From the NCBI GenBank assembly GCA_964534045.1, contig CAZHNO010000001.1, forward strand, positions 129,786 to 193,785: a stretch of DNA of 64,000 nt, read 5' to 3'. The position numbers and the translations under genes were made by a program. This document shows, one piece after another, positions 18,159 through 60,600 of this stretch; within the stretch, counting starts at the first letter, position 1; each line of letters opens with the position of its first letter. The DNA comes from an uncultured archaeon. Its GTDB lineage: Archaea; Iainarchaeota; Iainarchaeia; Iainarchaeales; JAAZKV01. The notes beneath the pieces were generated by a model, which did no database searches, was not told where the DNA came from, and saw only the letters and a list, made by a program, of their open reading frames with translations.

Positions 18159-18174
18159 AACTCTTTATAAATAG

Positions 18175-39883: not shown

Positions 39884-42800
39884 GTGGTTGGTTTGATTTC
39901 GGAAAAATTATCTGGGTTTTATACAAAATTAGAAGATAAGTATTTTGATGTACTTGATGCATTGGATGCAAAAGGCTTGCCTGTATATAAATACAGTGAT
40001 TTTTTTGAAGATAAGGGAATTCCTAGTTTTATTGTTACAATAACAATAATTTTGCTTTTAATAATGTTATTAGGTTTTGCTTTTACTGGAGCAAATCTTG
40101 GTTCTGGAGAAATAATTGTTTCATTAAAGGATTCAGTAACTGGACAACCTTTGAGAAATGTTTCTTTGAAATTATTTGATACACAAAATACTATTTTGTT
40201 TGATAAATCTGTGAGTGATGGGGATAGAGTTGAAATTGCAGCGTTAGCCCAAGGAACAAAAATAAGAATTTTAGCTGCAAAAGATGGTTATGCTAGTTTT
40301 CAAGATGAATTTCTTATTGGAAAAGAAAGTGCTACTCGTGCAATTTATTTAAACAAAAGGTTTGTTGGAATTAATGCAATGTTGAGACTTACTGATATTG
40401 AAACTGGAACAAAAATTAAGGGTGCAAGTGTTACTGCAAGATATGGTGATGAAATTTACAATTTTTTTGAAGATGGAAATGGATTATATAGAAAGGATAA
40501 TATTCCTGAAGGGGAAACTGTTTTGTTAAGTGTTACTGCTGATGGTTATAATTTAATTAGTGATCAGGCAATTGTTTTCTTTTCTGAAACTATTAGAGAT
40601 TTATCTTTGAGTCCTAGCAATGATGGTTTTGTTGGTTTGGCAAATGTAATAATTACAGTTAGTAATGCAGATGGTTTGGCAATTGAGGGAGCTGAGGTAA
40701 CTGTATATAATAAAGAGAACCAAGCAGTGTTAATGAAAAAAGAAACTACTCAAGGAGCAGTTTCTGGACAAATACAAACTGGAATTCAATTGAAAATCAC
40801 TATCAAAAAAGAGGGTTATTTGAATTATGATTCTGATGTTGAACTTGGTGGATTGACAATTAGAAAACAAGAAGATAAAATTGATTTAATAATGAAACAA
40901 GGTGGGGAAAAATTAATTGTTAATGTTGTTAATGAGTTAGGTTTGAGTTTGAGTGATTCTATTGTTCAAGTTTATAGTGAAAGAGGAGAATTAATTGATA
41001 GAAAAATTAGTGTTGTTGGTGGAGCAGAATTTTCTGGTTTAGACCCTGAAGCAACAATATTAATCACTGCTTACAAAGAAGGTTATTTGCCTAGTCAAGC
41101 AAAGGTTTTTGTTGGAGCAACTGAATCTGTGCCAATTATTTTGAAAGAAATCACATCAGGAAATTCTTTTAGATTAGATATATTTACTTTGGATAATATT
41201 GGAGATGCTGTTTCTGGAGCCAATGTTGAAATAAAATATTTTGATGAAGATGGCAACAAATTACCATATGGTTTTGATAACTTGCGAACTAGTTTGGCAG
41301 GATATGTTGCAGCAATAGTTGCATTAAATAAAACTTATGAAGTGAGTGCTGAAACTTCAATTATGCAAGGAAAAACAACAATTGATATTACTGAAGGAAC
41401 AATAGACAACAAAGTATACATAACAATGTTGATGAAACCAAATGTTGTTGAATTAAAATTAAGAGATTTGTTAGGAAATAAGGTTAGTGGAACAGCAATT
41501 GTTTCAACTATTGAAGGAGATATCCTTTATGATGGAAATATTACTAATTCAAGTGTTTTCTTTGATGCTTATGGAAAAGAATTGGTTGAGTTGCAAGTTA
41601 AATTAGCAGATGGAAATGTTTTTACTGAAAATGTTTATGTGAAAGGAAAAAAAATAGTTGATGTAATTGTTTATGATAAGGAAAATGCTAATCTTGCACC
41701 AGTAATTGAATTTGTTGGAATTGAAACAGAGAATGGGGAAGAAGCAAAAGGCTTGACTCCAGGAGCATTTTATTGGGCTAAGTTTTCTGTAAAGTGGCCT
41801 GTTGCTGCTGAAAAGGGGGGGGTACATTTTAGAACAGGGAGTGATAGTGTTGAATTTGCTGATTCTGAAAATGTTGCATTGTTTGATTTGGCTTTGAGCG
41901 GAGCAAACACTTTTTTATCTTACTCTTATAACCCTGAACCATTACCTGGAAATGAAGCACTTGATAGAAGTAATCAAGGTTATGTTGATGAGGCAAATAA
42001 ATGGGTTGAAGGAGAAGTAACAAATCCAAAGGGAACTTACATTGCTAAAGTAAAAATTAGGGTTAGTGATTTTACTGCAGGAAAAATAAATTTGAAATAC
42101 AGGGCTTGGAGTGAAGTGCAAGATGAAACTTATAGAACTCCAACGGATTCTGTTCTAGGAAATTCTGCATTCAATATTGAAAAGGCTTCTTTGTATGCTG
42201 AAACATTAGTAGAAAGTTTAACATTATATGAGTCTTTACCAGAGTGTAATGATAGTGTTTGTGTTGCGTATAATTTTGTTGATGAGACTGAAAGTTATTA
42301 TGATTTAGGAAAATTTGAAGCACTGCAAGGAAAAGTTTATGCACTTGAAACAGAATTTACTGCAATTGAAGGAGATTATTTACAAGTTAACTTGACTACT
42401 GATTCAAACATTGCTTTCATTGGAACACAAAGCGGAAATTTTAAGTTCATGGAAAATAGTGGTTATATTAATACAAAAGAAGCAAGTGTAACTGTTTCAT
42501 TAACACAAAATGGAAAACAAAAAATAAGATTTTATTTTGTTGCAAACGGCATTGGAACAAACATAATTAATTTTAGTGCAACTGGTTCTGGGGAAATAGA
42601 AAAACAAATTTCTTTTGATTCTGTTAATGAAAAAGAAATGCTAATAGAGTTGAGCGAAAAGAAAGTTGGTTTAGGAAGAAATTTTACTGTGAAAGTTTTG
42701 GAAAGCAATTTGAAAGGAATTGAAAACGCGCTAGTGAAAATAATTAATAAAAAAGGAGAAGTTGTGAAGAGTGTTGTTGGAGATGGCACTGATGGAAAAG

Positions 42801-45800
42801 GAAAAAGTGGATTGTATAGAATTGAAAATGATTTAGAAGCTGGAGTTTATGTTGTAAGAGTTGAAGCAAGCAAATTCAAATCAAAAGAAGAAGCATTGCT
42901 TGTAACAATGAGTGAAATACTTTCAATTACTGATGATTTAGTTGTAAAAATGTTATTGGAAGAAAAAAGCAAATATGTTGAAGCAAAATTAACTAACAAT
43001 TCTGAATTCACCATAAATAATATAATTATTGATACAGAAAATTCTGAAAACTTTAAGATTGATGTTGTTAGTATTCCAATGCTTGGAAAAAATCAAAGCC
43101 AAACCCTACAAATAAGAGTAACTTATATTGGGACAAGTGAAAGTGCAGATGAAACCTTTACTATTAGTGTAAAAGGAATGGTTGAAGGAACATTCTTGAC
43201 TAGTATTAGTACTACTTTAAGTGCTAGTTATAATAGAGTAATGGATAATAGTTGTTTGAAATTTGAGCCAAGTTCTTTAAAGTTAGCAATGGTTGGAAAC
43301 AATGGAGCTAGTGCAAGTGATACCATAACAGTAAAAAATAATTGTGAAATACCAGTTTCACTAACACCAATAACAATAGAAAAAACAAGAAGAAGCAATA
43401 TTGCTGTTAACGGAGAAGCAATTTCTTTACAAGTTGGACAAACACAAAACATAACAATCAATGCAATTAATATGGCTGATAGATTGTTCAATAGAAATGA
43501 AATTTATAATTATGAAATATTATACGATGCTAATTATATTACTAAAAGAATAAATGTTTCTGTTGAATTAATTAATCCACAAATTGCTTTGAGTTATCCT
43601 GGACAAATAACATTATTCTTAGCACAAAATAGTCCTACTGCAAAAGCTATTTCTGCTCAACCAATATTTGTGACAAATGTTTCACAATATAGTGTTGAAG
43701 GAATAAAATTTTCTACAGAAAAAGAATATGCAAGTGAGAGCAATGTAAAATTAAGTATTGAACCAGCAGACATGGTTTCTTTAGAAGCAGGACAAAGCAT
43801 TAACCCAGCAAAAATATTATTTGCTGAAGCATCAACAAAATATTCTGAACCAGTAAGGGGAACAGTAACTATTACTGGAAAAATCGGAAATTTAAATAAT
43901 AGAATTGGCACAAGCGATAATTATAATTACCAAGACTTTTTGAGTGGAAAATATTCTATAAATAATTATCAAAATAATAGTGCAGGGTATACAAGCACAA
44001 GTAATACTCTTGGAGTAATTGATGTCTTAGTTTATTACTCTGGTTTTGATTGTTTGAAAACAACAATTAGTAATGGAACATTCAATTTAAGTCAAGAAGG
44101 TTTAGGAAGAACAGCAACTATTTCAATACAAAATAATTGTGCAGAACCAGTAAGAGTGATTGATATTAAATCAAATTATCCAACTTTAGCATTTTCTATC
44201 CCTAATGTAATTGTTCAACCAAATACAACTATAGAAACACAAATGGGTGTAATGGTTGTTGGTGGACAAACAAAACTAAGAAACTTCCCAATAACTTTGA
44301 GAGGAATGACTGAAATAAGCCAAACAGTAATTGAAGCATCACCAATGAATATTGATGTGTTCTCTGGAGTAAATTTTAATGAGGAATATAGTAAGGCGGA
44401 AAAAGGAATTAGCGTAAATATTTGTGGAGAAGAAACAAAAGAATTAATTGATATTCCACGAGAAGCTAGCGGAAATGATTGTTCGCAGGGATATTGTGAT
44501 GCAGAACAAGCTTCTGAATATATAGCAAAAAAACTTGATACTGCAATAAAAAAAGCTGAAGCACAAGCATATTCAGCCCAAACAACTAATGAATCAATGC
44601 TTTGCTTGACAAAAGGATTCTGTACATTTGGAGATATTGGAACACAACAAACAAGCTTTGACTTGTACTTAAAGAATGATGTTGTGAGCACGGAAGCAAT
44701 GCGAAATGCTTTTGAAAAATTCGCTTCTGGAAGCACAGGAATAAGTGGAATAAGTTCTGCTGAATTTAGATTTGAAACAGGAAATGTGAGTGATGAAATA
44801 CTTGGAGCAATAGCAAGAAGTGGTTATGGAAAACAAGTAATAATTGATGATAGTATTAGTGGATGTGGTTATTACAAAATTGTTATTAGTGGAGTGTTCC
44901 CTGTTACAGGAGAAGGAGTAAATTTCTTAATGCCAATATTATCAATCAAAGCAGAACCATTAATTGGCAAGGGAAAAATACAAACAAAAGAATGTGAAGA
45001 TAGTATTGAGAACTTAGTGAACTTTACACCAATTGACAAAAAATATTCTTTAGGAAATACTGGCGGAACTTGGTTAACATCAATTGAAGCAGAAAAATCG
45101 TTACAAGAAATGGCAAAAAATATTTCAAAGAAATTAGTGAATAATGAAAATAGAGTTGGACAAGGAACAGGAAACAAATTAATTTTAAGAGAAGCACCAT
45201 TAACAGATGCCCTTGCAGAAGTTTGCTTAATTGGTGGAGAAAAAGCAATAATTGAAGTGAATATTAATTCTCAATTAACTGAATTAAATTCTGCAAAAAA
45301 AGATTTTGAAGATGAAGTAGTAAAACTTGTAACAAATGCAATCGCAAGTAATTTCGGAGAAAATTGCTTAACAAAACATGCAGAAGGATACAAGTGCGTT
45401 CAACTAACTGATTTGAGTGGATTGGAAGGCGGATTGTTACTAAAATTAAATTCAAAAAATTTATCACTAGGAAAAGATGGTGGTTGTGTAACTGGTGAAG
45501 TGAGTTCAAGTTTACCAGAAACAATAGAGTTTAGTGTAATTCCTTATACTGAAAACAAAGAATTTTTGAACATAACAAAAATAACTGTGGAAGAAATAAG
45601 CAAAAATAATGAAACAAACACTAATAATAATGCTGAAAATAATGAATCAAAAGAAGATGATGAAGATAGTGAATCAGAAATAAGTGAGGATAATGTTCTT
45701 GAAGGAAAGAAAGTTTATGAAATAGAATTTAAGGGAAGTAAAATCTCAAAAGAAACTCCTGTAAAAGTAAAACTTGATACTATTTCAACTGATAAGGAAC

Positions 45801-48367: not shown

Positions 48368-48454
48368 AAAAAATAAATAATTCTCTAAAAAATAATAAAA
48401 CTTTCAAACACTAACTGCAGTAAGTCTTTTTAATAAGAAAAACTTTTCTTAATA

Positions 48455-49912
48455 ATGATTCTAAAAATGAATTCACGTGGATTTAATTTATTTTCTGCTT
48501 TGGTTGCTGCAGTGTTATTAATGAGCGGAGTAGTTTTAATCAACATGCTAATTAGCACAGAAGAAAAAATTGGAACAGAAGTTTACTTAATGACAAATAA
48601 TTTTAGTTTAAGTGATGCTGCATCAATAGCGAAAGCTGATGCTTTACAAAGTTTTAATTATAATTTCAGAGAAAGTTTAGAAGATTACTTAACTTTAAGC
48701 GAAGCGGAAATCGCAGATGGAACAACCTTTGACCTAATAAATACTGATGATTTGGGTGGAAATCAATGGAATACTTTATTACAAAACTTTGAAACCGCAG
48801 TATTACTAAGTGGAACAACAATAAAAGATGAAGATGGAACTGAAATAGAAAGACAAAACTTTGAAGCGGTTATACAATATGTTGCTGACAGAACAATAAA
48901 TCAATTTCATGATGGAAGATATGGCAGGTATCATGTTTCTTTAAGTTCACGGGATAGTGAAGCAGTAAATGCTGTTAGAACAGTAATGGAAAATGTAATA
49001 GTAAAAAATGCTGGCGAAATGGATTTTTTAAAAGTGGTTGGTTGTGATGCAACAAGCTGTGAAGTAGGAACATTTTATTTCATTATTCCATTAGATTTAA
49101 TGACTAATGAAGATTATGAAGCTTTGCCAAGAATTGTTGTAAAAGATTTAATAACCGGTGAAGAAATAAAAGTTGCTTTGTTACCAAAAACCAGATTGAA
49201 TATTTACATACCTTTAAGATTTTTTAAAGCAGTTCATGAATCAATAAGAAATGCTAAAGCAATACAAAATGTTGAAACTATGATTGGAGCAAAAGCAATG
49301 CTTGGTTATTGTGATTCTGGCTCTTGTGTACCAAGAAAAGATCCATTACAAGCAACTAGTGGTAATTGGGACAAAGAATGTAGAAATACAAGTGAGACTG
49401 GGATTAGACAAGAATTAACCTCGCACAGCTTATTAATTACTGACGATTATAAAATAATACAAAATCAAATTGGGGCTGTTGCATTAAGAGCGTTTGCTAA
49501 ATTTCATGGTTGTGAATATGGAGTTGCAGAATATTATTATTATCATGCTCAAGACCCAACTTTTACTAATTATAATTGGACAACCGTTGGGTTGGAAGGA
49601 GAGTTAAGTATTGGAATAAAAGGTTATCCAAAATGCCCATTCAACAAAATTAATGGAATAATAAAATCCAATGAAACAAAGGATCTTAGTGGGACTGGTG
49701 GTGGAGCAGGAACTGGTTTGTATTGTTCAACACTAACAAAAATTGAAGCAAGTGTAATGTTTGTTGACACTAATCCATTATATATTGTGAGTGGCGAAAA
49801 AAATGTTTATAGAATAGGAATAAATGGAAAGAGTTTTGATGCAATGCAAAGCAATTTAGGAAGTTGTTCAAGTGGATCAAATCAATGTTGTATTCCAGGC
49901 ACCTGTCCATGA
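48455..49912 (+). CDS. Large pilin-like protein (485 aa) with a Cys-rich C-terminus
   Basis: The N-terminus is MILKMNSRG/FNLFSALVAAVLLMSGVVLINML, with RG at -2/-1 and F at +1 plus a hydrophobic helix. The C-terminus is GSCSSGSNQCCIPGTCP. Confidence 0.5.
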   Translation: MILKMNSRGFNLFSALVAAVLLMSGVVLINMLISTEEKIGTEVYLMTNNFSLSDAASIAKADALQSFNYNFRESLEDYLTLSEAEIADGTTFDLINTDDLGGNQWNTLLQNFETAVLLSGTTIKDEDGTEIERQNFEAVIQYVADRTINQFHDGRYGRYHVSLSSRDSEAVNAVRTVMENVIVKNAGEMDFLKVVGCDATSCEVGTFYFIIPLDLMTNEDYEALPRIVVKDLITGEEIKVALLPKTRLNIYIPLRFFKAVHESIRNAKAIQNVETMIGAKAMLGYCDSGSCVPRKDPLQATSGNWDKECRNTSETGIRQELTSHSLLITDDYKIIQNQIGAVALRAFAKFHGCEYGVAEYYYYHAQDPTFTNYNWTTVGLEGELSIGIKGYPKCPFNKINGIIKSNETKDLSGTGGGAGTGLYCSTLTKIEASVMFVDTNPLYIVSGEKNVYRIGINGKSFDAMQSNLGSCSSGSNQCCIPGTCP

Positions 49913-50006: not shown

Positions 50007-53000
50007 TTGAAAGTAATAATATATAGTGAACAAGTTATTGGGGTATTGACGATGGTTGATTTAAAGGGAGCTTATTTTTCTTTAGAAGATAAGTGGTACT
50101 CTTTCGTTGACAAAGTATCTGATAAGTTGCCTTTTTTTGGAAAAGTTGTTGATAAAATTGAAGAAAAAAATATCCCCAGTTTTCCAGTTGCAATAGCAAT
50201 TGTAATTGTATTAATTTTAGTAATCTTATTTTTATTAAGTGGAACAGGACAAGCATTAACAATAGCAATTTATGATGAAAATGGAAATCCAATTGATAGC
50301 GCAGAAGTAAGTGTTTTTTTGGACGGAAAATTAGTTGATTCTAGACCAACAACTACTGATGGAAAAGTAACATTCTTTTTAGCTGATGCTGGTTACACAA
50401 TAAAAATTGATAAAGATGGTTTTGTTTCAATAACAAAAGAAAATATTCGCCCAGCACAATACGCTGAAGAATTTACTTTAAGTAAAGATGATGTTGCATT
50501 AACAAGAGCAATTTCTTTGAAAAGTGCAACTGGACAATTGGTTTCAGGAACAGGAATAGTAATGTACACTTGTACTGATACTGGAGAACAAAAAGTTGGA
50601 AATTATTCAAATGGTTCATTCAAAGCAGATTTTTCTGATTGTTCACAAATAAGAATTGATTCAATTTCTGGATACACCATTGTTTCTGGAATAGCAACTA
50701 TTTCAAATACAAATAACATTGTTCTTGAAGCAATTGATACACAAACTGGAACAATAACAGTTAGTGTTAGTGGAGATGGAAGTTTAGCAGGAGTAAGAGT
50801 AACTATTAATGGAGAAGATGGAACTCCAGTTGAAACTAAAACTCTTGGTGAAGGTGGAGTTATTACTTTTGAAAATGCTCCAACAAAAAAATATTTTGTG
50901 AGCGTTCATGATCCAAATGGAAAATTTAAAGGTTACCAAGGAAATACTTTAGGAGAAATAAAAGAATTGAGAAAAAATGAAACTATTTCATTTAACTTAG
51001 TATTAGAAAAAACAGTTTCTGCAACAATCACAGTTAATGTAAAAGATTTTGATAATTCTGCACCAATAATTGGAGCAGAAGTAAGATTATTATCTAAAAG
51101 CACTCAAGAAACAATTGATACTGAAATAACAGGAATAACTGGACAAATTATTTTTAATGTTCCAGCAAATAGTGAGTATTTAGTTAGTACAGAGCACCCA
51201 GAATATATAATTGGGACGTCACAAAATGCAACAAGCAATGATATAATTAATTTCAATCTTATAAAAGCAACTGAAGCAAATTCACAAACATTAAAAGTAA
51301 AGGTTGTTGACCCACAAGGAAAACCAATTGATAATGTAAAAATTTCTCTAAAGAAATTAGATGATATAAAAGTTGGAGACAAAACAACTGGTGCAGATGG
51401 TATTGCTGAATTTTACAATTTAGAAATTACAAGCTATTATGCTTATGCAATAAAAGAAGGATTTGCTGGAGTAACTTCTAATGCTGTTCAAGTTCTTCCA
51501 CGAAGAGAAAATATACTGCCAATAATAATTGATATTGGAAATGGAGAAATAAAATTAAGTGTTGTTGATGAAGCACTTGGAATAATGCCCGGAGTTAATG
51601 TAAAAGCAATTAATTATTTCACAAAAGAAGTTGAAGAGGAACAAACAACTTCACAAACAGGAGAAGCATCATTTACACTAAGAGAAGATAAGAAAATTTA
51701 TTTCATAGTTTCAGCAGCAGGTTATCCTGAATATTATACAACAACAATGAATCCTGATTCAGATTCAACAATTGAAAGAATGGTTCAATTAGAAAGAAGC
51801 ACTGACTCAGTAAAAGTAAAAATAATTGGAATTTATTCTGGTGATTCAGAAATTGGTGCTGAAAGAATTGTTGGACAAGGAAGATATATTGTTAAAGCAG
51901 TTGTTGAAGTTCCAAAAGGAACTTTTTCAGAAGCAGGTTTCCATTTGAGAACAGGAAAGGCAACAGAAAATACCATTAATTTAATGGAAGAAGATCTTGC
52001 AAAATTAGGAAATGTTTATTCATCAGCACAAACTACAACAAAAGGAACTACTTATAGTCCACCAAATAATTATGCTGTTGATTCAGTAAATTTAACAAGC
52101 GGAACAGCAAAGTGGATAGAAGCCAAGTGGAAAAATCCACAAGAAGGAATTTATGAAATTGAAACTGAATTAATAATTGATGATGTAAATCCTAACTCAG
52201 GAATAAATTTATGGTATAGGGCTTATGCAAAAGGAGCAAGCACTCTAAGAAGTCCAACAAACTCTAATTCAGGACACGAATTATATGCAAGCGCAAACAA
52301 TTATTTATTAGTTAGCGGAGCAACAAATTTATGCAAAGAATCTTTTTGTGTAAGCAAAGAAGTTACAACACAAACAGGAACTAATGCTGGAAGAGTACAA
52401 TATATTAGTAACAAAATTAGTGCAAGCAAAAATACTATTTACACATTGAAAGCTAATTTGATTAGTAGAAAAGTAATTAATGGTGCTGTGCTAGAAATTG
52501 AAGGAAAGGGAATACAAATACAAGAAATTCTTGTAAATGGGTTAGAAAAAGAGGATAGCACTAGCTTAGGAACACTTGGAAAGGATTCTTTTACTGAAAT
52601 TGAAATAACATTTGAAGCAATTAGTTCAGGGACTGGAAGCTTAAAGTTAAAAATAAATTCTTCATCAACAACAGAATTAGAAGAAAATATTATTGTTGAT
52701 GTAAAAGCAAACAAGAAATTTAACCTTGATATTATTCCAAAACAAATAATTCCTTATGTAAACAATACAATGTTCTTTGAAGTAACAGATGGAAATGATT
52801 CTATAAAAGATGTTTTAATACAAATAAAATCTAACAATGATGTTTTGGAAACTATTGAAACTGGAAGTGAAGGATTAGCACAATATGAATTAAGTTCACC
52901 AAGCATTGGAGATATAATTACTATTACTGCATCAAAAGAAAATTATGATACAATTGAAATAACAAAAGCAGTTGATGAAAGATTACTAATAATTACTCCA

Positions 53001-56000
53001 CCAGAAATAAGTGAAACAATAAAAATTGGTGAAACTGCAAGCATTGAAACCACAATCATATTAGAGAATGCAACTGCCGAAAAATTATTAATTGATAGAT
53101 TTAATTTAAGCGGGGAATTAAGTTCTTACTTAGATATTTCACTAAATAATATTGAAGGAACAAGCATCGATGTTGAAAAAGATGCAAATCATATTTTGAA
53201 AATAAAACCAAATGCTACTGCAAAGAAATTAAGAGAACCAAAAACAATTACTGGAACAATAGAAATAATTACAAAAGTTGACGGAACAAACCAAAGTTAT
53301 TCAAGCGAATTACCAATTAGTGTTAGATTATCGATGCCTGGATACCTTGATAGTGACAAGTGCTTGAAAATCACTCCAGGAAGTTTAGAATATAATACTT
53401 CAACAAGTGAAGTAACTCAAAGTGTTGAAGTAGAAAATTCATGCACAGCAGAAGGAATTAAAGTTAACTTGTTTGAAATGGAAGCAAAATTAAATGAAGT
53501 AAGCAAATTTGGAACAATAAATGTTTCAGGAGTAGGCTTCATGAATACATCAATAGGTGATTCTTACTCAAAAATTGCAGATATTTTTGAAAATGGTTCA
53601 AAAGAAACACTAAGTATTAGATTTAATCCAAATGCTAGTTTGTCATCAGGAAAACAAACACTAACAATGATGGTTAGAGCAAAAAATAATACCGAAGATG
53701 GAGAAGAAACAATTGAAACAAAAATAACACTAAATATTTCAATGAGTAATTTATCAAAGTGCATTGAAGTAGAAGAACCTGCAGATGGAATTGTGTTAGA
53801 TGTTGCAGGATGGAATATGGGATACAATAGAATAATTAATAGTAATTTATCATCTTATGCACAAACATACCAAGGATTCACTAACAGAGGACAACAATCA
53901 ATGCCTTATGGAATGCAACAAGCATTGCCATTCATGGGAAAAGGTGGAAGCGAATATGAGCAAGATAGATTTATAATAAAAAATAATTGTGCTGTTGATG
54001 TTGAAATTGATCTTGATCCTGATTCAAGAATAAATGTTAACGAAGAAAAATTTACTATATCAGCAAATAGTGATGCCACAGTAACAGTTAGTCCGGGATA
54101 TACTCTTGGAAAATATAATGTCGGTGTTAATGCAAAAATAGTTGATTCAACAGAATCACATTACAAAGTTGATTCAGTAAGTGTTACTGTTAGAAGATTA
54201 GGAGAAATTGATTCTGAATGTATAAAAACAAATGTTTCAAAATTAACATTCAATTCATTCTTATACAAAGCAGAAAAATACAAAGTATACAATTATTGTT
54301 ATAACTCAGGAGTAATGCTTGCAAGAAATAATGCGGTTTCAATACAATGTGATTCGCCAACTCCTGCACAAGGCACAGCTGTTCCTTATATGCAAGTAGG
54401 TATGGAACAAATATATGCAAACCAATACCCAATAACAAACACTTACCAATCATATAATTCTTATCTACAACCACAAGGGTGTGGAACAAATTCTTGTTCA
54501 TTCATTGCAGGAACAAGAACATTCAATTATAGATTGCTTGATCAAAGTGGGGGCGTAGAAGAGTTAACTTTTGAAGTTTTACCAAGTTCACAATATCTTC
54601 CTCAAAGAAGATTATTTGATTCACAAAGAAACACTTATGGATTCTTCCAAAACCTAGCAGACATTAGACAATGGGCAACAGAAACAGATGCACGAACAGA
54701 AGTTTATGGAAACTTGAATGTACAATACTCTAATCAGTATGGTTCAACACAATGCATGTCATTCCCAATAACAATAGAAGATAATTGGAGAATGCTTGAA
54801 AGTATTGACTCTGCAATTAATTGGGGAGATCCAAATGCAAAACCACAAGAGTGTGTGGGAAGCGAAGAGAAAAAAGCACTAGATATTGTGAGATATTGGG
54901 TTGAAAGAGGAAATGGAAAAGGAGCAATACCTGATTCAGAATACAGAGAAAATGGAGTTTATTTACATTTAGCTGAACCACCAGCAGTAAATATTGGGCC
55001 TTCACCAACAAACACTACATACTACCCACAATACTCAGGCACAAAAGGAACAAGCAGTGCAAAAAATTGTGGATTGTTAGATTCATTAAGTGATTTAAAA
55101 TACTCAACTGATTTCGGCGGAGTTGTAATAGGCGTAGAAACACTAAAGAAAGGAAGTTTAATGGGCAATACATTAGGACCAAATTTAGCAGTGTCAATTG
55201 ATAGAACAGGAATACAATACAGTTGTGTTTACATTAATACAACAGTAAGTGCAAAATTAAGAAGAGCAATTAATTTAGAAACCGCAGAAATAACTTGGCC
55301 ACTAAAAGCAATAGTAACAAGACCAGGATATGTAATACCAAGTGGATTCAAACCAGAAACTGATTGTTATAATGTAGGAACTGGAGAATTAGATTGTGAA
55401 TTACTAGCAAGACAATACATAAAGAAAGGATATAAAGAATTCATTAAAGCTTATTCTCAATGTGCACAATCAATAACAGAAGAATACATGAAAGAATTAG
55501 CAAAAGAACAAACATTTGAAGGAGCATGCACAACAGATTCAACAGAATATGGATTTGACAAAATAAACAAAACAAGTGCTGAAGAAATTAGCACTAGCGA
55601 TGCAAAAACATATTGCCAAGAAAACTTTTGTAACAATGATATGCTACAATTATTCTTACTAGATAAATATAAAACATTAAAAGAAAAATTAAATAACTTT
55701 GCAGGAATAGAATCACAAGTTAATAGCGTTGAAAGCAATTTAAAATTGTCAGAAATTTATAAATTAGCTCCAACAAAAGATTTGAACACTTGTGAAAAAA
55801 CAGAAAAATATTATTCTGGAACAAGTGATGTTTACATTGAAGTAGATATTGAAAAATTCATTAATGAAAAATCATGGAAAGATTCTGTTCTTAACGATAC
55901 ACCAACTAGCGATTCACGCCCATCACTAGTATCAATGATGACAATACTAAATAATTTGAAAAACACTGATACCCACAAAGAGTACTTTATATTATACAAT

Positions 56001-57080
56001 AATTCTGGAAATAAATATATTGCATTAGAAGCATACATAAAAGCATTAGAAAAAGCTAGTGACATTACTCAAGTGCCAACTTCAGCAACACAAATAGACA
56101 TAGTAAATTGTGCACAATACAATCCAATAAAGAAAGAACTGCTTGAAAAAATTGCTAATGGAACACCAAGAGTTGTAAAATTAATAAAAGTAGGAAAAAC
56201 AACTTATGACACTAATGAACAAAATGCAATTTATGTAAGAAACAATAATTTATTAGAAATAACTAAATTAGCACAATTCAATAAAATTTATAACAAGCCA
56301 TTATATTTAACGGCAGAAGATAAAGTAAATGATTTAGAAAGTGGTTTATTAGATAAATTTAATGCTTATCCAAAAGGATTTGAAACAACAATCAATGGAA
56401 GAACAGGACCAGCAATATACAATGCAAACATTGATGGAATAATATTAGAAATAAAAGACAAAACTGATGCAAGCATTATAGTTGAATTAAGTGATAAAAA
56501 TGAATACAAAAAATCATCAAACAATATACTATTGACAAAAGCATTTAACATTGCAGAAATAAATAAATCAAACAGCAAAGCAAACGAAGCAATAATTATT
56601 GATGAAACTGGATACTATGTAAGAACACCAGTTGTGTTAACAGCAACATTACATGCATCTGAACCAACAATAAGTTACACAAATGGAATCTCAGCAGCTG
56701 ATTCAAGTTTAATAAAATGGAACATGAGTGGAAAAATAATCTCTGATACAAAAACTGGAAATGATTATTTAGTTGATGTTGGAACAAGTTCTGTTGCAAG
56801 AACACTAAAAGGAATATATTATTATCCAGAAAATGGTGCATTAATTTTCACAACTGAAAACAAAGACGGAGTTAGAATAAATGCAGAAGCAAAAGTATTC
56901 AACTCGGGACAAAATGCTAGCACATCAACTGCAAATGTAAAAACAGATGATATTGAATTAAACTTAACAATGCCAACATTAAAAGAAATAATTGACTTAG
57001 TGAAAAAGAATGATTATGCTTGTGTTGCTGAAGAAGGAAAAAGCATTATTTGGAATGAAAATGAGATTTTGGCGAAGTGA
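50007..57080 (+). CDS. Giant membrane-anchored surface protein 3 (2357 aa); probable true start at 50052
   Basis: From Met-16 (MVDLKGAYFSLEDKWYSFVDKVSDKLPFFGKVVDKIEEKNIPSF) it carries the conserved N-terminal motif and a TM helix, then CarboxypepD_reg-like repeats (LTIAIYDENGNPIDSAEVSVFLDG etc.). The 50052 start aligns with the giant 2 and giant 4 N-termini. Confidence 0.8.
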   Translation: MKVIIYSEQVIGVLTMVDLKGAYFSLEDKWYSFVDKVSDKLPFFGKVVDKIEEKNIPSFPVAIAIVIVLILVILFLLSGTGQALTIAIYDENGNPIDSAEVSVFLDGKLVDSRPTTTDGKVTFFLADAGYTIKIDKDGFVSITKENIRPAQYAEEFTLSKDDVALTRAISLKSATGQLVSGTGIVMYTCTDTGEQKVGNYSNGSFKADFSDCSQIRIDSISGYTIVSGIATISNTNNIVLEAIDTQTGTITVSVSGDGSLAGVRVTINGEDGTPVETKTLGEGGVITFENAPTKKYFVSVHDPNGKFKGYQGNTLGEIKELRKNETISFNLVLEKTVSATITVNVKDFDNSAPIIGAEVRLLSKSTQETIDTEITGITGQIIFNVPANSEYLVSTEHPEYIIGTSQNATSNDIINFNLIKATEANSQTLKVKVVDPQGKPIDNVKISLKKLDDIKVGDKTTGADGIAEFYNLEITSYYAYAIKEGFAGVTSNAVQVLPRRENILPIIIDIGNGEIKLSVVDEALGIMPGVNVKAINYFTKEVEEEQTTSQTGEASFTLREDKKIYFIVSAAGYPEYYTTTMNPDSDSTIERMVQLERSTDSVKVKIIGIYSGDSEIGAERIVGQGRYIVKAVVEVPKGTFSEAGFHLRTGKATENTINLMEEDLAKLGNVYSSAQTTTKGTTYSPPNNYAVDSVNLTSGTAKWIEAKWKNPQEGIYEIETELIIDDVNPNSGINLWYRAYAKGASTLRSPTNSNSGHELYASANNYLLVSGATNLCKESFCVSKEVTTQTGTNAGRVQYISNKISASKNTIYTLKANLISRKVINGAVLEIEGKGIQIQEILVNGLEKEDSTSLGTLGKDSFTEIEITFEAISSGTGSLKLKINSSSTTELEENIIVDVKANKKFNLDIIPKQIIPYVNNTMFFEVTDGNDSIKDVLIQIKSNNDVLETIETGSEGLAQYELSSPSIGDIITITASKENYDTIEITKAVDERLLIITPPEISETIKIGETASIETTIILENATAEKLLIDRFNLSGELSSYLDISLNNIEGTSIDVEKDANHILKIKPNATAKKLREPKTITGTIEIITKVDGTNQSYSSELPISVRLSMPGYLDSDKCLKITPGSLEYNTSTSEVTQSVEVENSCTAEGIKVNLFEMEAKLNEVSKFGTINVSGVGFMNTSIGDSYSKIADIFENGSKETLSIRFNPNASLSSGKQTLTMMVRAKNNTEDGEETIETKITLNISMSNLSKCIEVEEPADGIVLDVAGWNMGYNRIINSNLSSYAQTYQGFTNRGQQSMPYGMQQALPFMGKGGSEYEQDRFIIKNNCAVDVEIDLDPDSRINVNEEKFTISANSDATVTVSPGYTLGKYNVGVNAKIVDSTESHYKVDSVSVTVRRLGEIDSECIKTNVSKLTFNSFLYKAEKYKVYNYCYNSGVMLARNNAVSIQCDSPTPAQGTAVPYMQVGMEQIYANQYPITNTYQSYNSYLQPQGCGTNSCSFIAGTRTFNYRLLDQSGGVEELTFEVLPSSQYLPQRRLFDSQRNTYGFFQNLADIRQWATETDARTEVYGNLNVQYSNQYGSTQCMSFPITIEDNWRMLESIDSAINWGDPNAKPQECVGSEEKKALDIVRYWVERGNGKGAIPDSEYRENGVYLHLAEPPAVNIGPSPTNTTYYPQYSGTKGTSSAKNCGLLDSLSDLKYSTDFGGVVIGVETLKKGSLMGNTLGPNLAVSIDRTGIQYSCVYINTTVSAKLRRAINLETAEITWPLKAIVTRPGYVIPSGFKPETDCYNVGTGELDCELLARQYIKKGYKEFIKAYSQCAQSITEEYMKELAKEQTFEGACTTDSTEYGFDKINKTSAEEISTSDAKTYCQENFCNNDMLQLFLLDKYKTLKEKLNNFAGIESQVNSVESNLKLSEIYKLAPTKDLNTCEKTEKYYSGTSDVYIEVDIEKFINEKSWKDSVLNDTPTSDSRPSLVSMMTILNNLKNTDTHKEYFILYNNSGNKYIALEAYIKALEKASDITQVPTSATQIDIVNCAQYNPIKKELLEKIANGTPRVVKLIKVGKTTYDTNEQNAIYVRNNNLLEITKLAQFNKIYNKPLYLTAEDKVNDLESGLLDKFNAYPKGFETTINGRTGPAIYNANIDGIILEIKDKTDASIIVELSDKNEYKKSSNNILLTKAFNIAEINKSNSKANEAIIIDETGYYVRTPVVLTATLHASEPTISYTNGISAADSSLIKWNMSGKIISDTKTGNDYLVDVGTSSVARTLKGIYYYPENGALIFTTENKDGVRINAEAKVFNSGQNASTSTANVKTDDIELNLTMPTLKEIIDLVKKNDYACVAEEGKSIIWNENEILAK

Positions 57081-57086
57081 TGCCAA

Positions 57087-57584
57087 ATGGATCAAAAAGC
57101 ACTAGCACTTTTGCTACTATCATTAATATCACTATTACTAACTTTCGCATATACATTCCTAAATCCAATGTACAATCCATTTGGAACTAACCCATTAACA
57201 ATATTAGTAATAATTTTTTTTATTTTCGGAGCAGTTGGATTTGGTTTTTTATCATTTATTCCCCATGCAATACTTGGCTTATCACTGGGCTCACAAAAAA
57301 ACTCAATAATATTCATATACATAATTCCAATTGTTATTGCAACTTATGCAGGATTAAAATTAGGTTCAATTTTATTAGATGATTTTATGAATAAAAAATA
57401 TTTTTTAGAAGAAATCAAACCAATAATCATAATGTTTGCTATTGCAATTATTATAGCAATTTCAATAGAAGCACTAATGCCATACATAATGAATACGCAA
57501 TTTTGGCCAGAGGATTTCTTTGGAATGAAAATAACTGAAGGCGAAAATCTAGCAAATATCTTTGAACAACTAAAACAAGCATAG
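57087..57584 (+). CDS. Small polytopic membrane protein (165 aa)
   Basis: It has 4-5 TM helices and lies immediately downstream of giant 3 on the same strand. No GxGD motif is present, so it is not an obvious prepilin peptidase. Confidence 0.45.
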   Translation: MDQKALALLLLSLISLLLTFAYTFLNPMYNPFGTNPLTILVIIFFIFGAVGFGFLSFIPHAILGLSLGSQKNSIIFIYIIPIVIATYAGLKLGSILLDDFMNKKYFLEEIKPIIIMFAIAIIIAISIEALMPYIMNTQFWPEDFFGMKITEGENLANIFEQLKQA

Positions 57585-57651
57585 TGCTTAGAAAAGTATA
57601 TAAATAACGGAAGATTAGTTATTTACAGTTATTAAGTTAAGTGATTAAAAA

Positions 57652-60600
57652 ATGGGCTTTGGGGACAAACTTAAAGATATCTACTTCGCGGGCGAAGAAA
57701 AATGGTACAATACACTTGACAAAATAGATGAGCATTTACCAATATACAAAATTGTTGATAGAGTAGATGAAATTGTTCCCAGTTTTGCATTACTAATTGT
57801 GCTTGTTATAATATTATTATTGCTGTTTGGTTTGAGTTTATTTGCAATAGGACAACAAGAAGCCGTGCTAAAAATAACAGTTGTAAATAATGATGGTGCT
57901 GGAATAAGCGGAGCAAAAGTCAGCCTTGAAGGAATTGAAGAAACTTTTTATTCAAATGATTTTGGTTTAATACAAGATATTATTGTGCCATATGGTTACA
58001 CAATAAGTGTTACTGCAGAAAAAGATGGAAAGAAAAAAACTCTCCCAGTAAAAATATCTTTTATTGAAACAAATCATGAAATAATTTTGCCAGTAGATAT
58101 TATAAGTTTTAGTTCAAAAACAGTACAATTTCTTTCAGAAGATGGAACATTAATTACTGATCCTTTAACATTAAATTATTCTTGTTCAGAAGGAACTGCT
58201 CCACAAAGCGAAACAATCTATGATGGAACAGCAAATATTTCAGTACCAGCAAATTGCGGAGCACTATCACTAACAATCACATCAACAAAATATGAAACAA
58301 AGATAACACCAATAACAAATGCTTCAACAACAATAATTCTTACAGAAACTCAACCAAAAGAAACTGGAAAGGCTTACATAACACTTGAAAGTGGCGGTGT
58401 AAAAGTAACTGAAGAAATTGAAGTAATGGCTTACAAAGCAGACATGCCTTACTTACCTGAAGAAACAGTTACTGCTGAAAATGGAATAGCAACTTTTACT
58501 ATAACAGAAGGAGATTATATTTTCAAAACAAAACAAATGCTAGGATACAAACAAGGAACAACAAGCAGAGTAAGTGTGAGTAGCACAACTGCATTAAATG
58601 AAACAATTGAATTAGAAAAAAGTATTCTTGGAAAAATTAGTGTGAAAGTAAAAAGAGGAACAATTAATTTTGAAGATGCTTTAGTAACAATAAGAAAAAC
58701 AACAGAACTAGCAAGAGATGAAACCGATTATAATGGAATAGTAGAATTTGAAGTTGCTGAACAAGGTCCATTCATAATTACTGCAACAGCAGAAGGATAT
58801 TGTGATGAATCAAAAAGTGCTAATGTTGGAGACACAGTAGAATTATCAATGAAACTAGATAATGGTTCTTGTGGAAGTGAATTAAAAGTAAAAGTTGTTG
58901 ACCAAGATAACAAACCAATACAATATGCAAGAGTAATATTATTCGGAGAAACAAGTGAAGATGCTTACAAATTAAGTTATACAGATAAAATCACTGATTA
59001 TAATGGACAAACAAGTTGGAATCCAGTGAAGTATGCAGAAGAAGGAGAAAAATACAAAGTGTTTGCTTACAAAGGAGATTATTCAGGATGGAGTGAAGCA
59101 TTTACTTTTGATGCAATACGAAGCGAAGAAGAAATTTTGATAAGAGTTGAATTACCACTTGGTTTAGTAAATGTAAATGTAAGTGATAGAGATGGTTTGC
59201 CAGTAAAGTTTGCCGAAGTGCAATTATTTGAAGCACATGGAAATAATAAAGTAACAGGAAAAAAATTAACTGAAGTAAACGGAGCAATAACATTTAGTGT
59301 AAAAGCAGGACAAAAAGTTTATGCAGTAGTACAAAGCGAAGGATATGAAAGTTATATGGCAATGCCATTAGAAGTAAAAGGAAATGGAACAATAAACTTT
59401 GATGTAACATTAGGAAAGCCACCAGCAGAAGAATTAGTTGTTAACCCACTAGGATTATTCAAAAATGATTCAAAGGTATTGAGAGCACAACCAGGAGAAG
59501 AATATTTAGCTAAATTTGAAATTATTGCTCCAATAAGATATTCAGAACTAGGATTCTTTGCAAGAGCAGGAAAAGAAAATATTACAAAAACAGAATTAGA
59601 TAAACTTTATATTAAAGAATTAATTGCACCCGGAGAAAAAGTTTATGATAATTATGAAATAGATGAAGAAACATTGTACGGAGCGACATACAATCCACCA
59701 AATGGATATAGCATAGAATCAGATTACTTGAATTTAGAAGAAAGCAAATGGGCACAAACAGTATGGACAGAAAATGGTTATGTTGTTGGAAAAATAATTG
59801 TTGGAGTAAAAATAAAAATTAGGGAAAATGCAAAACTAAATGAACAACTTGAATTAGGGTATAGAGTTTGGGGAATTGATGATGGTTATGAAAGAGACCC
59901 GGTTGATAATTTATTAGGAACAAGTCAAAGCAATTCAAACAAACAAGCGTTATATGCATCAACAAAAACAATGTATATATGGGTTGGAGTAGAGTCTTTG
60001 TGTGAAACACAAGGAGAAAATTCTTTCTGTATAACATCAACAATAACAGATGAGGATTTAATAACAACAAGCTTTGATACAACAGTTGATTTACAAAACA
60101 ATGCTGAATATGATTTAGCAATAAAAGTGTATAATAATTCTGAAAGAAATTTTGATGTATCAAAAATCAAATTTGAAAACACAGAAGAAAATTTACTATT
60201 AAAAAATTACTCAATGATAAAACCAAATGGTTCAGTATCAACAGGAACAATAAATGATTATTTAACTGATTGGATTGACACAGGAGAATACAAGAAACAC
60301 ACTGAAATACAAATAACTTCAATGAAAATAACTCCACAAAAAACAGGTTATGCCCCATTATTATTAAAATTAAGAGATACTTCAACAATACTATTTGAAA
60401 AAATATTCAATATTAATGTAACTTCTGATAAGAAAATGAATGTTCAATTCTTATATGATAATGAATATCAAGATGCTGTTCCAAAAATAATTTCAGGACA
60501 AAAACAAAACTTAACACTAAGAGTAAAAAATACTGCAAATGGTTTAGAAATAAGTGATGCTTTTGTAAAATTATATGATAGGTTCGGAACAAAACTAGCA

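What the first reader, a model, noticed from the sequence alone, without database searches (positions are those of the whole stretch)
39884..57850. Conserved about 45-aa cytoplasmic N-terminal motif shared by giants 2, 3 and 4: a private targeting signal?
The three N-termini are:
- 39884-40090: LEDKYFDVLDALDAKGLPVYKYSDFFEDKGIPSF + TM.
- 50052-50250: LEDKWYSFVDKVSDKLPFFGKVVDKIEEKNIPSF + TM.
- 57652-57850: GEEKWYNTLDKIDEHLPIYKIVDRVDEIVPSF + TM.
They align as [ED][ED]K[WY][YF]xxxDxxxxxLPxxxxxDxx[ED]xxx[IV]PSF immediately before the signal-anchor helix, while the extracellular parts diverge. Giant 1 carries only a short version (MVDVGKFFDKK). A conserved cytoplasmic prefix on type II-oriented giant proteins could be a recognition tag for a dedicated insertion or secretion machine. 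The neighbouring FlaI/FlaJ-like systems are a candidate for that machine.
Basis: seen in the sequence. Interest (0 to 1): 0.7.

Follow-up and report, generated by a model that had tools for sequence, protein, structure and literature searches.

The report
Conserved N-terminal anchor of archaeal giants
Three giant surface-protein genes in this DPANN archaeal window start with the same unannotated ~45-residue two-helix module plus membrane anchor, which marks more than 1000 related giant-protein clusters and lies beside a pilus-type assembly machine, but whether it is a targeting signal is untested.

Summary
An HMM built only from outside sequences hits the window at exactly three places, the N-termini of giants 2, 3 and 4 (E 4e-23, 1e-20, 2e-17).

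The motif is about 10 residues longer than reported. Its consensus is xxxLKxxYxxLEDK[WY]YxxLDxLDxKG[IV]PVYKxxDxxExxG[IV]PSF, followed by a ~24-residue uncharged helix. AlphaFold2 models it as helix, turn, helix, turn, TM helix (pLDDT 95 and 90).

An exhaustive profile search found 1018 protein clusters. In the 150 best, the motif sits at the N-terminus, and the full-length proteins are 1200-3075 aa. All 53 genome loci are archaeal MAGs, and all but one of the named ones are Iainarchaeota or Micrarchaeota. Pfam, NCBIfam and PDB sequences hold no matching family.

Giants 2-4 are ancient paralogs in a conserved cassette. That cassette is linked to a long-N-domain pilus-type ATPase: 14 of 16 ATPase loci with full flanks carry a motif giant. 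It is also linked to a mini-archaeosortase-like gene. Giant 1 does not carry the motif.

My best reading is a cytoplasmic hairpin plus uncleaved signal anchor that serves as a docking or assembly handle. Topology, cleavage state and partner are inferred, not shown.

The parts
39893..40030 (+). g2 N-terminal motif (aa 1-46, MISEKLSGFYTKLEDKYFDVLDALDAKGLPVYKYSDFFEDKGIPSF)
   Evidence: The external HMM scores it at E 4.2e-23. AlphaFold2 gives H2-26, a turn, H31-39 and a turn. The TTG start is supported by homologues that begin MISEKL.
40031..40102 (+). g2 signal-anchor helix
   Evidence: Hydropathy peak of 2.95 at aa 46-64. AlphaFold2 helix 45-66.
50052..50183 (+). g3 N-terminal motif (aa 1-44)
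   Evidence: The external HMM scores it at E 1.3e-20. AlphaFold2 gives H4-25 and H27-38 at pLDDT 95. The ATG is conserved in P0034.
50184..50255 (+). g3 signal-anchor helix
   Evidence: Hydropathy peak of 3.47 at aa 44-62. AlphaFold2 helix 43-62.
57652..57786 (+). g4 N-terminal motif (aa 1-45)
   Evidence: The external HMM scores it at E 1.8e-17. Translation.
57787..57858 (+). g4 signal-anchor helix
   Evidence: Hydropathy peak of 3.32 at aa 48-66.
39893..48367 (+). g2-type giant gene (2824 aa)
   Evidence: ORF. CarboxypepD_reg domain. Orthologs at 38-48% identity in L001, L003, L005 and L010.
48455..49912 (+). 485-aa pilin-like protein with a class III-type leader (NSRGFNLFSALVA)
   Evidence: Translation. 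Homologues lie next to motif giants in 21 of 53 loci.
50052..57080 (+). g3-type giant gene (2342 aa)
   Evidence: CarboxypepD_reg, SdrD_B, Big_1, bMG3 and MG4 domains. The L047 ortholog is 40% identical over 2482 aa.
57087..57584 (+). 165-aa protein with 4 TM helices that always follows g3-type giants
   Evidence: jackhmmer finds it directly after g3-type genes in 9 loci. TM count.
57652..64000 (+). g4-type giant gene (open at the window end, more than 2116 aa)
   Evidence: Homologous to g3 over about 1250 aa.
29964..30569 (+). Mini exosortase/archaeosortase-family protein (201 aa)
   Evidence: TIGR04178 scores 39.1 bits against a cut-off of 23. The ISWLCTG, NxxRI and AHDxLFR motifs are conserved. 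The gene lies 92-471 nt upstream of g2-type genes in 8 loci. It is present in 35 of 52 ATPase loci.
24903..27200 (-). 765-aa pilus-type (T2SSE/FlaI-like) ATPase with a ~330-aa N-terminal extension
   Evidence: PF00437 matches aa 372-607. FlaI model scores 158 bits, below its cut-off. It is 72-81% identical in loci that carry g2-type giants.
22396..24837 (-). 813-aa polytopic membrane protein, the likely single-gene platform
   Evidence: At least 9 hydropathy peaks. It is adjacent to the ATPase, and it is 58-64% identical in L001, L003 and L009. No T2SSF Pfam hit was found.

Best explanation
**What it is.** The three N-termini are copies of a family-defining N-terminal module that Pfam, NCBIfam and PDB sequences do not cover. 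The module has three parts:
- an amphipathic helix of about 22-25 residues;
- a short second helix;
- a transmembrane helix of about 24 residues.

Two G-[IVL]-P turns join these helices. The 'PSF' is the N-cap of the TM helix, just as 'PVY' is the N-cap of helix 2.

**Where it occurs.** The module heads a large family of adhesin-like surface proteins of 1200-3100 aa in DPANN archaea (Iainarchaeota and Micrarchaeota). These proteins occur as ancient paralogs (g2, g3 and g4 types) in a conserved cassette:
- mini-archaeosortase-like gene;
- g2;
- a ~480-aa pilin-like protein;
- g3;
- a small 4-TM protein;
- g4.

The cassette is transcribed divergently from a pilus-type ATPase/platform pair.

**Proposed mechanism.**
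1. The hairpin folds in the cytoplasm as soon as it is made.
2. It keeps the N-terminus inside while the long hydrophobic helix acts as an uncleaved type II signal anchor. The Ig-like ectodomain is threaded out.
3. The hairpin then remains as a cytoplasmic handle. A conserved acidic and aromatic ridge (E12, Y16, D20, D/S23 in g3 numbering) docks the giants to a conserved partner. The most likely partners are the co-encoded pilus-type machine (the ATPase N-domain or the platform loops) or the sister giants.

**Shown versus inferred.** Shown: existence, extent, conservation, position, predicted secondary structure, distribution and gene linkage. Inferred: N-in topology, lack of cleavage, and the docking function and partner.
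For: **A real and specific domain**
- The external HMM hits only the three N-termini in the window.
- The exhaustive profile search gives 1018 clusters at E<=1e-3 and 457 at E<=1e-10. All 150 listed hits match at the N-terminus.
- In 53 genome loci, every motif ORF that is complete within its locus is 1295-2971 aa.
- The logo from 200 sequences has near-invariant Y8, E12, K14, D20, P27, D34, E/D37, P42 and F44.
- Mean pairwise identity is 46% for the motif, 26% for the TM and 22% for the next domain.
- The motif stays recognisable where BLAST no longer aligns the ectodomain, for example L036 and L041 against g2-g4.

**Structure**
- AlphaFold2 gives pLDDT 95.1 for g3 and 89.6 for g2, both as helix, turn, helix, turn, TM helix.

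**Anchor rather than signal peptide**
- The uncharged run after PSF has a median of 24 residues, with the 5th to 95th percentile at 18-29.

**Ectodomain probably outside the cell**
- It carries CarboxypepD_reg, Big_1, SdrD_B, bMG3 and MG4 domains.

**Family-specific, not a general need of large exported proteins**
- Giant 1 and the 1477-aa protein in the same window lack the motif.

**Linkage to a machine**
- 14 of 16 ATPase loci with full 10-kb upstream flanks carry a motif giant, and 22 of 29 with at least 2 kb upstream do.
- The ATPase is adjacent to g2-type genes in L001, L003, L005, L006, L008, L009 and L010.
- A 2026 preprint notes that archaeal 'system 2' type IV filament loci have long-N ATPases, a single platform gene and large adhesin-like proteins.

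**Paralog-specific subtypes kept across genomes**
- See L047, L017 and L014. This fits a role in assembly or docking.
Against: - Topology is not demonstrated. The N-domain is acidic (mean net charge -2.9), against the positive-inside rule, and the flank after the TM is also negative at -1.4.
- N-glycosylation sequon enrichment in the ectodomains is weak (z 0.45 to 2.8).
- The short linker after the TM is rich in G, S, A and T, so it could be a signal peptidase site.
- No partner has been identified.
- The ATPase linkage is gene neighbourhood only. It involves the g2-type gene and a clade with at least 52% ATPase N-domain identity, and the loci were not de-replicated (L073 and L075 look identical).
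- Only the best 150 of the 1018 hits could be inspected.
- The AlphaFold2 monomer models say nothing about binding.
- Shared ancestry alone explains why the three paralogs carry the same leader.
Confidence: 0.45

Rival explanations
1. The motif is an extended, cleaved signal peptide. The 45-residue module would be an unusually long n-region that modulates SRP/Sec targeting or slows translocation of very large cargo. Signal peptidase I would remove it together with the hydrophobic helix. This would work like ESPR in autotransporters or YSIRK and KxYKxGKxW in Gram-positive giant adhesins.
For: - The motif is always at the extreme N-terminus.
- It is found only on very large exported proteins.
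- The linker after the helix is rich in small residues, with plausible -3/-1 sites such as g3 TGQA|L.
Against: - The hydrophobic run has a median of 24 residues, which is anchor-like and not the length usual for signal-peptide h-regions.
- The n-region is acidic (-2.9) instead of basic.
- It is a confidently folded two-helix unit with invariant charged residues.
- Pfam gives no ESPR or YSIRK hit.
- Giant 1 and the 1477-aa protein are exported without it.
Confidence: 0.17
2. The motif has no dedicated partner and is an inherited leader kept by generic constraints. The hairpin would only need to fold fast enough to force N-in/C-out insertion of an anchor whose flanks lack positive charge. The three copies would simply reflect gene triplication.
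For: - g2, g3 and g4 are paralogs.
- All motif proteins form one transitively connected ectodomain superfamily.
- The charge pattern gives no topology cue of its own, so a folding-based topology determinant is plausible.
Against: - Near-invariance of specific charged residues (E12 99%, D20 100%, D34 95%, E/D37 99%) across clusters that are less than 50% identical is more than a fold-fast constraint would need.
- Paralog-specific subtypes are conserved across phylum-level distances.
- There is tight neighbourhood linkage to a conserved machine.
Confidence: 0.2
3. '[IV]PSF + TM' is a sorting signal for the co-encoded mini-archaeosortase. It would be an N-terminal counterpart of PGF-CTERM that is cleaved, or used to release or re-anchor the giant.
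For: - An exosortase/archaeosortase-family gene with conserved Cys, Arg and His lies 92-471 nt upstream of g2-type genes in 8 loci. It is present in 35 of 52 ATPase loci.
- P-S-F directly before a TM helix resembles P-G-F.
- ArtA can process a tripartite signal that is not at the C-terminus (review PMC6098224).
- No canonical C-terminal signal is seen in any cassette protein inspected.
Against: - The signal would be at the wrong end and on the wrong membrane face. Hydropathy and the positive-inside rule place the enzyme's Cys, Arg and His at the outer face, whereas PSF is at the inner face if the giants are N-in (inference).
- There is no basic cluster after the TM; the net charge is -1.4.
- The parallel 'G-I-P-V-Y' turn before helix 2 suggests that PSF is a structural N-cap.
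Confidence: 0.1
4. The giants are modular pilins. The motif would be a long class III-type leader removed by a prepilin peptidase, so that the hydrophobic helix enters a pilus-like fibre carrying the giant as a tip or minor subunit.
For: - The locus is full of class III-leader proteins, with a pilin-like gene between g2 and g3.
- Many g2-type sequences read [KR]G|IPSF before the helix.
- Modular pilins with large grafted domains are known in Streptococcus sanguinis (from my own knowledge; PMC9934059 was listed but not read).
Against: - g3, g4 and other types lack G or A at the corresponding position (KN-IPSF, EI-VPSF, KV-VPSF).
- The leader is 45 aa, acidic and folded.
- PF04021 does not hit the giants.
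- AlphaFold2 shows a helix of about 20 residues and a separate beta-sandwich. It does not show a long alpha-1 helix packed on a sheet.
Confidence: 0.05

Closest known systems
Large adhesin-like proteins encoded in archaeal type IV filament 'system 2' loci (bioRxiv 10.64898/2026.04.22.720090)
   Same: The ATPase has an extended N-terminus. There is a probable single-gene platform, several class III pilins, and large Ig-rich adhesin-like proteins in the same locus.
   Different: The passages of that preprint I read describe no conserved N-terminal motif, no three-paralog cassette and no archaeosortase-like gene. It reports system 2 mainly in Euryarchaeota, whereas this is DPANN.
ESPR (autotransporters and two-partner secretion), YSIRK-G/S and KxYKxGKxW leaders of very large bacterial surface proteins
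   Same: These are conserved sequence motifs placed N-terminal to the hydrophobic core on very large secreted or surface proteins, and they are lineage-restricted.
   Different: They are bacterial, short, part of a cleaved signal peptide and not folded domains. Here the module is 45 aa, acidic, two-helix and followed by an anchor-length helix. There are no Pfam hits to those families.
PilN N-terminal motif binding PilM, and the GspL cytoplasmic domain binding GspE, in bacterial type IV pilus and type II secretion systems
   Same: These are bitopic proteins. Their short conserved cytoplasmic N-terminus precedes a single TM and docks to the cytoplasmic ATPase or actin-like component of a type IV filament machine. 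This is the 'works like' model I favour.
   Different: There is no sequence relationship. PilN and GspL are small assembly proteins, not giant adhesin-like proteins. The interaction here is hypothetical.
PGF-CTERM / archaeosortase A sorting signal
   Same: P-[GS]-F lies immediately before a TM helix, and an exosortase/archaeosortase-family gene is adjacent.
   Different: The motif is N-terminal rather than C-terminal. No basic tail follows it, and it is predicted to lie on the opposite membrane face.
Giant proteins next to type II secretion-like loci in Omnitrophota (bioRxiv 10.1101/2023.11.21.568195)
   Same: Giant surface or attachment proteins are genomically linked to a type II/IV-family machine in ultra-small or predatory and symbiotic prokaryotes.
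   Different: Those are bacterial, are defined as larger than 10,000 aa, and have different domains. That preprint reports no shared N-terminal motif in the passages read.

Membership tests
Class III (prepilin) signal peptide / type IV pilin | A short basic leader that ends in [KR]-[GA] directly before the hydrophobic helix, with a match to PF04021 | tested here: not met
   The leader is about 45 aa with net charge -2.9. The position before [IV]PSF is G in 67% and N in 31% of sequences, and g4-type sequences lack it. PF04021 hits the 27370 pilin but none of the giants.
Class III (prepilin) signal peptide / type IV pilin | A long N-terminal alpha-1 helix whose C-terminal half packs on a beta-sheet | tested here: not met
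   AlphaFold2 gives a helix of 20-22 residues, then a linker and a separate beta-sandwich.
Sec-type cleaved signal peptide | A short basic n-region and a short h-region (typically 7-15 residues, from established knowledge), followed by an A-x-A-type site | tested here: not met
   The n-region is 45 aa and acidic. The uncharged run has a median of 24 residues. The linker of small residues after the helix leaves cleavage possible but unproven.
ESPR (PF13018) / YSIRK (PF04650) leaders | A match to the family profile | tested here: not met
   Pfam hmmscan found no such hit for the three giants or for the 57 motif sequences, even at E<=10.
Exosortase/archaeosortase sorting signal (PEP-CTERM, PGF-CTERM) | A tripartite signal of signature motif, TM helix and basic cluster at or near the C-terminus | tested here: not met
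   A P-S-F + TM stretch is present, but at the N-terminus. The 15 residues after the TM have net charge -1.4. The C-termini of g2, g3 and g4 types have no TM.
Exosortase/archaeosortase family (for the gene at 29964-30569) | A match to the TIGR04178 signature above its cut-off, and conserved Cys, Arg and His | tested here: met
   It scores 39.1 bits against a cut-off of 23. ISWLCTG, NxxRI and AHDxLFR are conserved in 10 homologues. No subfamily model reaches its cut-off.
HeH / Ish1 (PF10281) helix-extension-helix motif | A match to the family profile above the gathering score of 26.6 bits | tested here: not met
   7 of 57 motif sequences hit at 14-19 bits. The hits cover only 12-15 residues (LLDWLDxKGIPVY). 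This is a lead, not membership.
Archaeal type IV filament 'system 2' locus | An ATPase with an extended N-terminus, a single platform gene, class III pilins and large adhesin-like proteins | tested here: inconclusive
   The ATPase is 765 aa with its T2SSE domain at 372-607. The 813-aa neighbour has at least 9 TM helices but no T2SSF Pfam hit. Pilins with class III leaders are present. The arCOG and MacSyFinder models were not available.
Micrarchaeota S-layer protein (SLP_Mh) | A protein of about 101 kDa with an N-terminal S-layer domain | tested here: not met
   The giants are 2100-2800 aa, and Pfam finds no S-layer domain in them.

The most novel reading that the evidence does not exclude
The hairpin plus PSF-TM module is a new class of N-terminal sorting or assembly signal. 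It would be read by a dedicated apparatus made of the long-N pilus-type ATPase, its platform and the mini-archaeosortase. That apparatus would mount three paralogous giants and a large pilin-like protein into one host-attachment organelle of DPANN archaea. If so, this would be the first archaeal case of a private cytoplasmic tag coupling giant adhesins to a type IV filament machine, and possibly the first archaeosortase-family enzyme that acts on an N-terminal anchor.
Probability: 0.15. Interest if true: 0.85.

Novelty: new variant of a known kind. Interest (0 to 1): 0.55.

Why it matters
DPANN archaea are tiny symbionts, and how they attach to hosts is largely unknown.

- This module is a clean sequence handle (one HMM) that retrieves a whole family of giant surface proteins. 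It also retrieves their conserved cassette from metagenomes.
- The module ties those proteins to a specific pilus-type machine and to an archaeosortase-like enzyme.
- If the hairpin is a docking tag, it gives a direct, testable link between a cytoplasmic motor and giant adhesins.
- At the least, it deserves a domain-family entry. It also corrects the start codons of giant 2 and giant 3.

Tried and rejected
- **Word-index protein search** with the 3-sequence and 57-sequence motif alignments returned only 5 and 12 short fragments. It was not useful for architecture, so I replaced it with the exhaustive representative search.
- **Foldseek against afdb50** was not available.
- **Foldseek against PDB** matched only the beta-sandwich, with nothing at E<1e-3.
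- **Profile search against PDB sequences** gave no hit below E 0.16.
- **Pfam and NCBIfam** have no family for the motif. The Ish1/HeH resemblance is below threshold, so I rejected it as membership.
- **Sequon enrichment**, used as a topology test, was inconclusive.
- **S-layer protein:** rejected, because the known Micrarchaeota S-layer protein is a different ~101-kDa protein.
- **Motif grafted on unrelated ectodomains:** rejected, because all motif proteins connect transitively into one superfamily.
- **Giant 1 'short version':** rejected.
- **Literature searches** for the motif, for Iainarchaeota giants and for DPANN archaeosortases found no prior description.
- **Source-contig look-up** gave only a 5.7-kb Logan contig.

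Full report
**Context**

The window has about 30% GC. It encodes class III-leader proteins, a PAC2-family protein and a class II prolyl-tRNA synthetase with the ProRS-C_1 C-terminal domain. It holds two pilus-type (type IV filament) systems:
- An ATPase at 101-1519 with a split platform at 3146-4984.
- Pilin-like genes at 13879-16778, 20446-22335 and 27370-28086, an 813-aa protein with at least 9 TM helices at 22396-24837, and a 765-aa ATPase at 24903-27200.

Downstream lie:
- a mini exosortase/archaeosortase-family gene (29964-30569; TIGR04178 at 39 bits);
- giant 1 (31324-39513);
- giant 2 (39893-48367);
- a 485-aa pilin-like gene (48455-49912);
- giant 3 (50052-57080);
- a 165-aa 4-TM gene (57087-57584);
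- giant 4 (57652 to the window end).

The three N-termini read as reported and share 14 invariant columns. A core regex finds them and nothing else in six frames. An HMM built only from sequences of other genomes hits the window at exactly these three ORF starts, with E 4.2e-23, 1.3e-20 and 1.8e-17, and nothing else at E<=10.

Homologues fix the starts at TTG 39893 (MISEKL...), ATG 50052 (MVDLK...) and ATG 57652. Giant 1 has no motif.

**What the motif is**

A logo from 200 sequences gives xxxLKxxYxxLEDK[WY]YxxLDxLDxKG[IV]PVYKxxDxxExxG[IV]PSF. In g3 numbering the conserved positions are:
- Y8 98%
- E12 99%
- K14 92%
- D20 100%
- P27 96%
- D34 95%
- E/D37 99%
- P42 97%
- F44 92%

An uncharged run follows, with a median of 24 residues. 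The module is acidic, with mean net charge -2.9.

AlphaFold2 with family alignments predicts, at pLDDT 95.1 (g3) and 89.6 (g2), helix 1 (about 22-25 aa), a turn, helix 2 (9-12 aa), a turn, the TM helix, and then a beta-sandwich. The two turns are the repeated G-[IVL]-P elements. PSF therefore looks like the N-cap of the TM helix, parallel to PVY at helix 2. On a helical wheel the conserved hydrophobic residues of helix 1 form one stripe. E12, Y16, D20 and D/S23 form an adjacent ridge (my inference).

No Pfam, NCBIfam or PDB-sequence family matches. Seven of 57 members give sub-threshold Ish1 (helix-extension-helix) hits of 14-19 bits over 12-15 residues. I treat that as a lead only. Foldseek against PDB aligned only the beta-sandwich.

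**Distribution**

A scan of one genome per GTDB species found 53 loci, all in archaeal MAGs. The names are:
- Iainarchaeum or 'ainarchaeum': 14
- Micrarchaeota: 4
- 'Thaumarchaeota' bin: 1
- unnamed archaeon: the rest

Iainarchaeota belong to the kingdom Nanobdellati in the NCBI taxonomy. In the loci examined the motif opens a giant ORF, and the ORFs complete within their locus are 1295-2971 aa.

The exhaustive profile search of 1.84 billion representatives gave 1018 clusters at E<=1e-3 and 457 at E<=1e-10. All 150 listed hits match at the N-terminus, and the long ones are 1200-3075 aa. I could not inspect the other 868.

**Relationship of the giants**

- g3 and g4 are homologous over about 1200-1300 aa (24% identity, E 1.5e-47).
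- g2 shares the first ~260 aa and a ~300-aa central region with g3. With g4 it shares the central region and a repeat-domain stretch.
- g1 is unrelated.

All 128 long motif proteins form one transitively linked ectodomain superfamily. Some members (L036, L041, L025, L031) share no BLAST-detectable ectodomain similarity with g2-g4 while keeping the motif. Mean pairwise identity is 46% for the motif, 26% for the TM and 22% for the next domain. So the motif is the best-conserved part of an old paralogous family. It is not a tag grafted onto unrelated proteins.

**Gene neighbourhood**

A cassette recurs: mini-archaeosortase-like, g2-type, ~480-aa pilin-like, g3-type, ~165-aa 4-TM protein, g4-type (L047, L017, L014, L019, L023).
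- The pilin-like gene is present in 21 of 53 loci.
- The 4-TM protein follows g3-type genes in 9 loci.
- The archaeosortase-like gene lies 92-471 nt upstream of g2-type genes in 8 loci, and 925 nt upstream in L012.
- The 765-aa ATPase is 72-81% identical and divergently adjacent in seven of these loci.

I then searched metagenomes from the other side, using the ATPase's specific N-domain. 14 of 16 loci with a full 10-kb upstream flank carry a motif giant, and 22 of 29 with at least 2 kb upstream do. This holds down to 52% ATPase N-domain identity. The archaeosortase-like gene is present in 35 of 52 of these loci. The loci were not de-replicated.

The system at 101-4984 shows no such linkage. 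In the window, giant 1 and two small genes separate the archaeosortase-like gene from g2. Giant 1 has no homologue in any fetched locus.

**Mechanism**

The ectodomains carry domain families typical of extracellular proteins: CarboxypepD_reg, Big_1, SdrD_B, bMG3 and MG4. The hydrophobic helix has anchor length. I therefore infer a type II orientation, with the hairpin in the cytoplasm and uncleaved.

Three things argue for a specific interaction surface rather than a mere insertion aid:
- charged residues that are near-invariant;
- paralog-specific subtypes that are kept across genomes;
- the linkage to the ATPase and platform.

By analogy with PilN-PilM and GspL-GspE (established knowledge of type IV pilus and type II secretion systems), I propose that the hairpin docks the giants to the co-encoded machine or to each other.

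Several facts weigh against certainty:
- The flank charges give no topology cue.
- Sequon enrichment is weak.
- The small-residue linker after the TM could be a peptidase site.
- No interaction has been tested.

**Rivals**

1. *A cleaved extended leader, like ESPR or YSIRK.* Disfavoured by the helix length, the acidity, the folded state and the absence of profile hits.
2. *A generic inherited leader acting only as a topology determinant.* This is compatible with the paralogy but not easily with the invariant surface residues.
3. *A sorting signal for the adjacent archaeosortase-like enzyme.* PSF resembles PGF, and ArtA can process a non-C-terminal signal. However, the signal is at the wrong end, has no basic tail, and lies on the opposite membrane face to the predicted catalytic residues.
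4. *A long class III leader on modular pilins.* The cleavage-site and fold criteria are not met.

**Comparison with the literature**

A 2026 preprint on archaeal type IV filament machineries states that 'system 2' loci have long-N ATPases, one platform gene and large adhesin-like proteins. The locus type is therefore known in outline. I found no description of this motif, of the three-giant cassette or of the archaeosortase link. The characterised Micrarchaeota S-layer protein is a different ~101-kDa protein. Omnitrophota giant genes next to type II secretion-like loci are a bacterial parallel.

**Verdict**

Novelty: a new, unannotated N-terminal domain family on a known kind of locus. Interest is moderate, at 0.55.

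Noticed in passing
window 29964-30569; L001 9191-9865, L005 9271-9909, L010 3155-3832 and others: A ~200-aa exosortase/archaeosortase-family protein (conserved ISWLCTG, NxxRI, AHDxLFR) is the most constant neighbour of the long-N pilus-type ATPase (35 of 52 loci). It sits directly upstream of g2-type giants. No cassette protein inspected has a canonical C-terminal sorting signal, so its substrate is unknown.
   Followed up: partly
window 16902-20330: A DDE transposase (16902-18158), a C-5 cytosine methyltransferase (18420-19637) and a 230-aa ORF (19638-20330) interrupt the pilin cluster. In L001 the homologues of the flanking pilin genes are adjacent, so this looks like a mobile-element or restriction-modification insertion.
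   Followed up: partly
window 20446-22335 (- strand): A pilin-like N-terminus (class III-type leader NKAQSGTVFRLLIDG) is fused to an FGE-sulfatase domain, giving 629 aa. The L001 homologue is only 187 aa, so this may be a modular pilin.
   Followed up: no
window 31324-39513: Giant 1 (2729 aa) has a short N-terminus plus a TM, no motif, no Pfam domain and no homologue in any of the 105 fetched loci. It carries an HETTH (HExxH) metalloprotease-like motif at aa 1684 (nt 36373). It appears to be inserted between the archaeosortase-like gene and g2.
   Followed up: partly
window 46238-46345, 47555-47614 (g2); 63214-63384 (g4): Glycine-rich hydrophobic stretches lie deep in the C-terminal parts of g2 and g4, for example GTAGFILATNMATGSGNSGF...GGALLTGALSILQG. 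They resemble glycine-zipper or membrane-inserting segments and could engage a host membrane.
   Followed up: no
window 57018-57059 (g3 C-terminus); C-termini of P0013, P0058, L053 and others: g3- and g4-type giants share a conserved C-terminal motif, C[VI]x(3-9)[FIW]WN, often followed by another Cys. No C-terminal TM is present.
   Followed up: partly
window 57087-57584; L014 17461-17943, L017 17877-18479, L019 17457-17960 and others: A ~165-aa protein with 4 TM helices and no Pfam family lies immediately after g3-type genes in 9 loci (jackhmmer). It is a candidate membrane partner of the giants.
   Followed up: partly
window 24903-27200 (- strand), aa 1-330: The ATPase N-terminal extension is extremely conserved, with 81% mean column identity across 7 genomes. 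It carries a Cys/His cluster (DCKHC...HHCRFH) and an invariant IKPSFIGSKLSF stretch.
   Followed up: no
window 28083-29873: A secreted 596-aa protein carries a GLUG motif and weak similarity to the N-terminal region of M26 IgA1 proteases. It lies between the pilin at 27370 and the archaeosortase-like gene, and is seen in only a few related loci.
   Followed up: no
L031 16630-17676: A 349-aa polytopic protein lies directly after a motif giant. Its N-terminus (SDLKKGLIQNKIVFP) looks like that of an A24 prepilin peptidase. This was seen in a single locus only.
   Followed up: no
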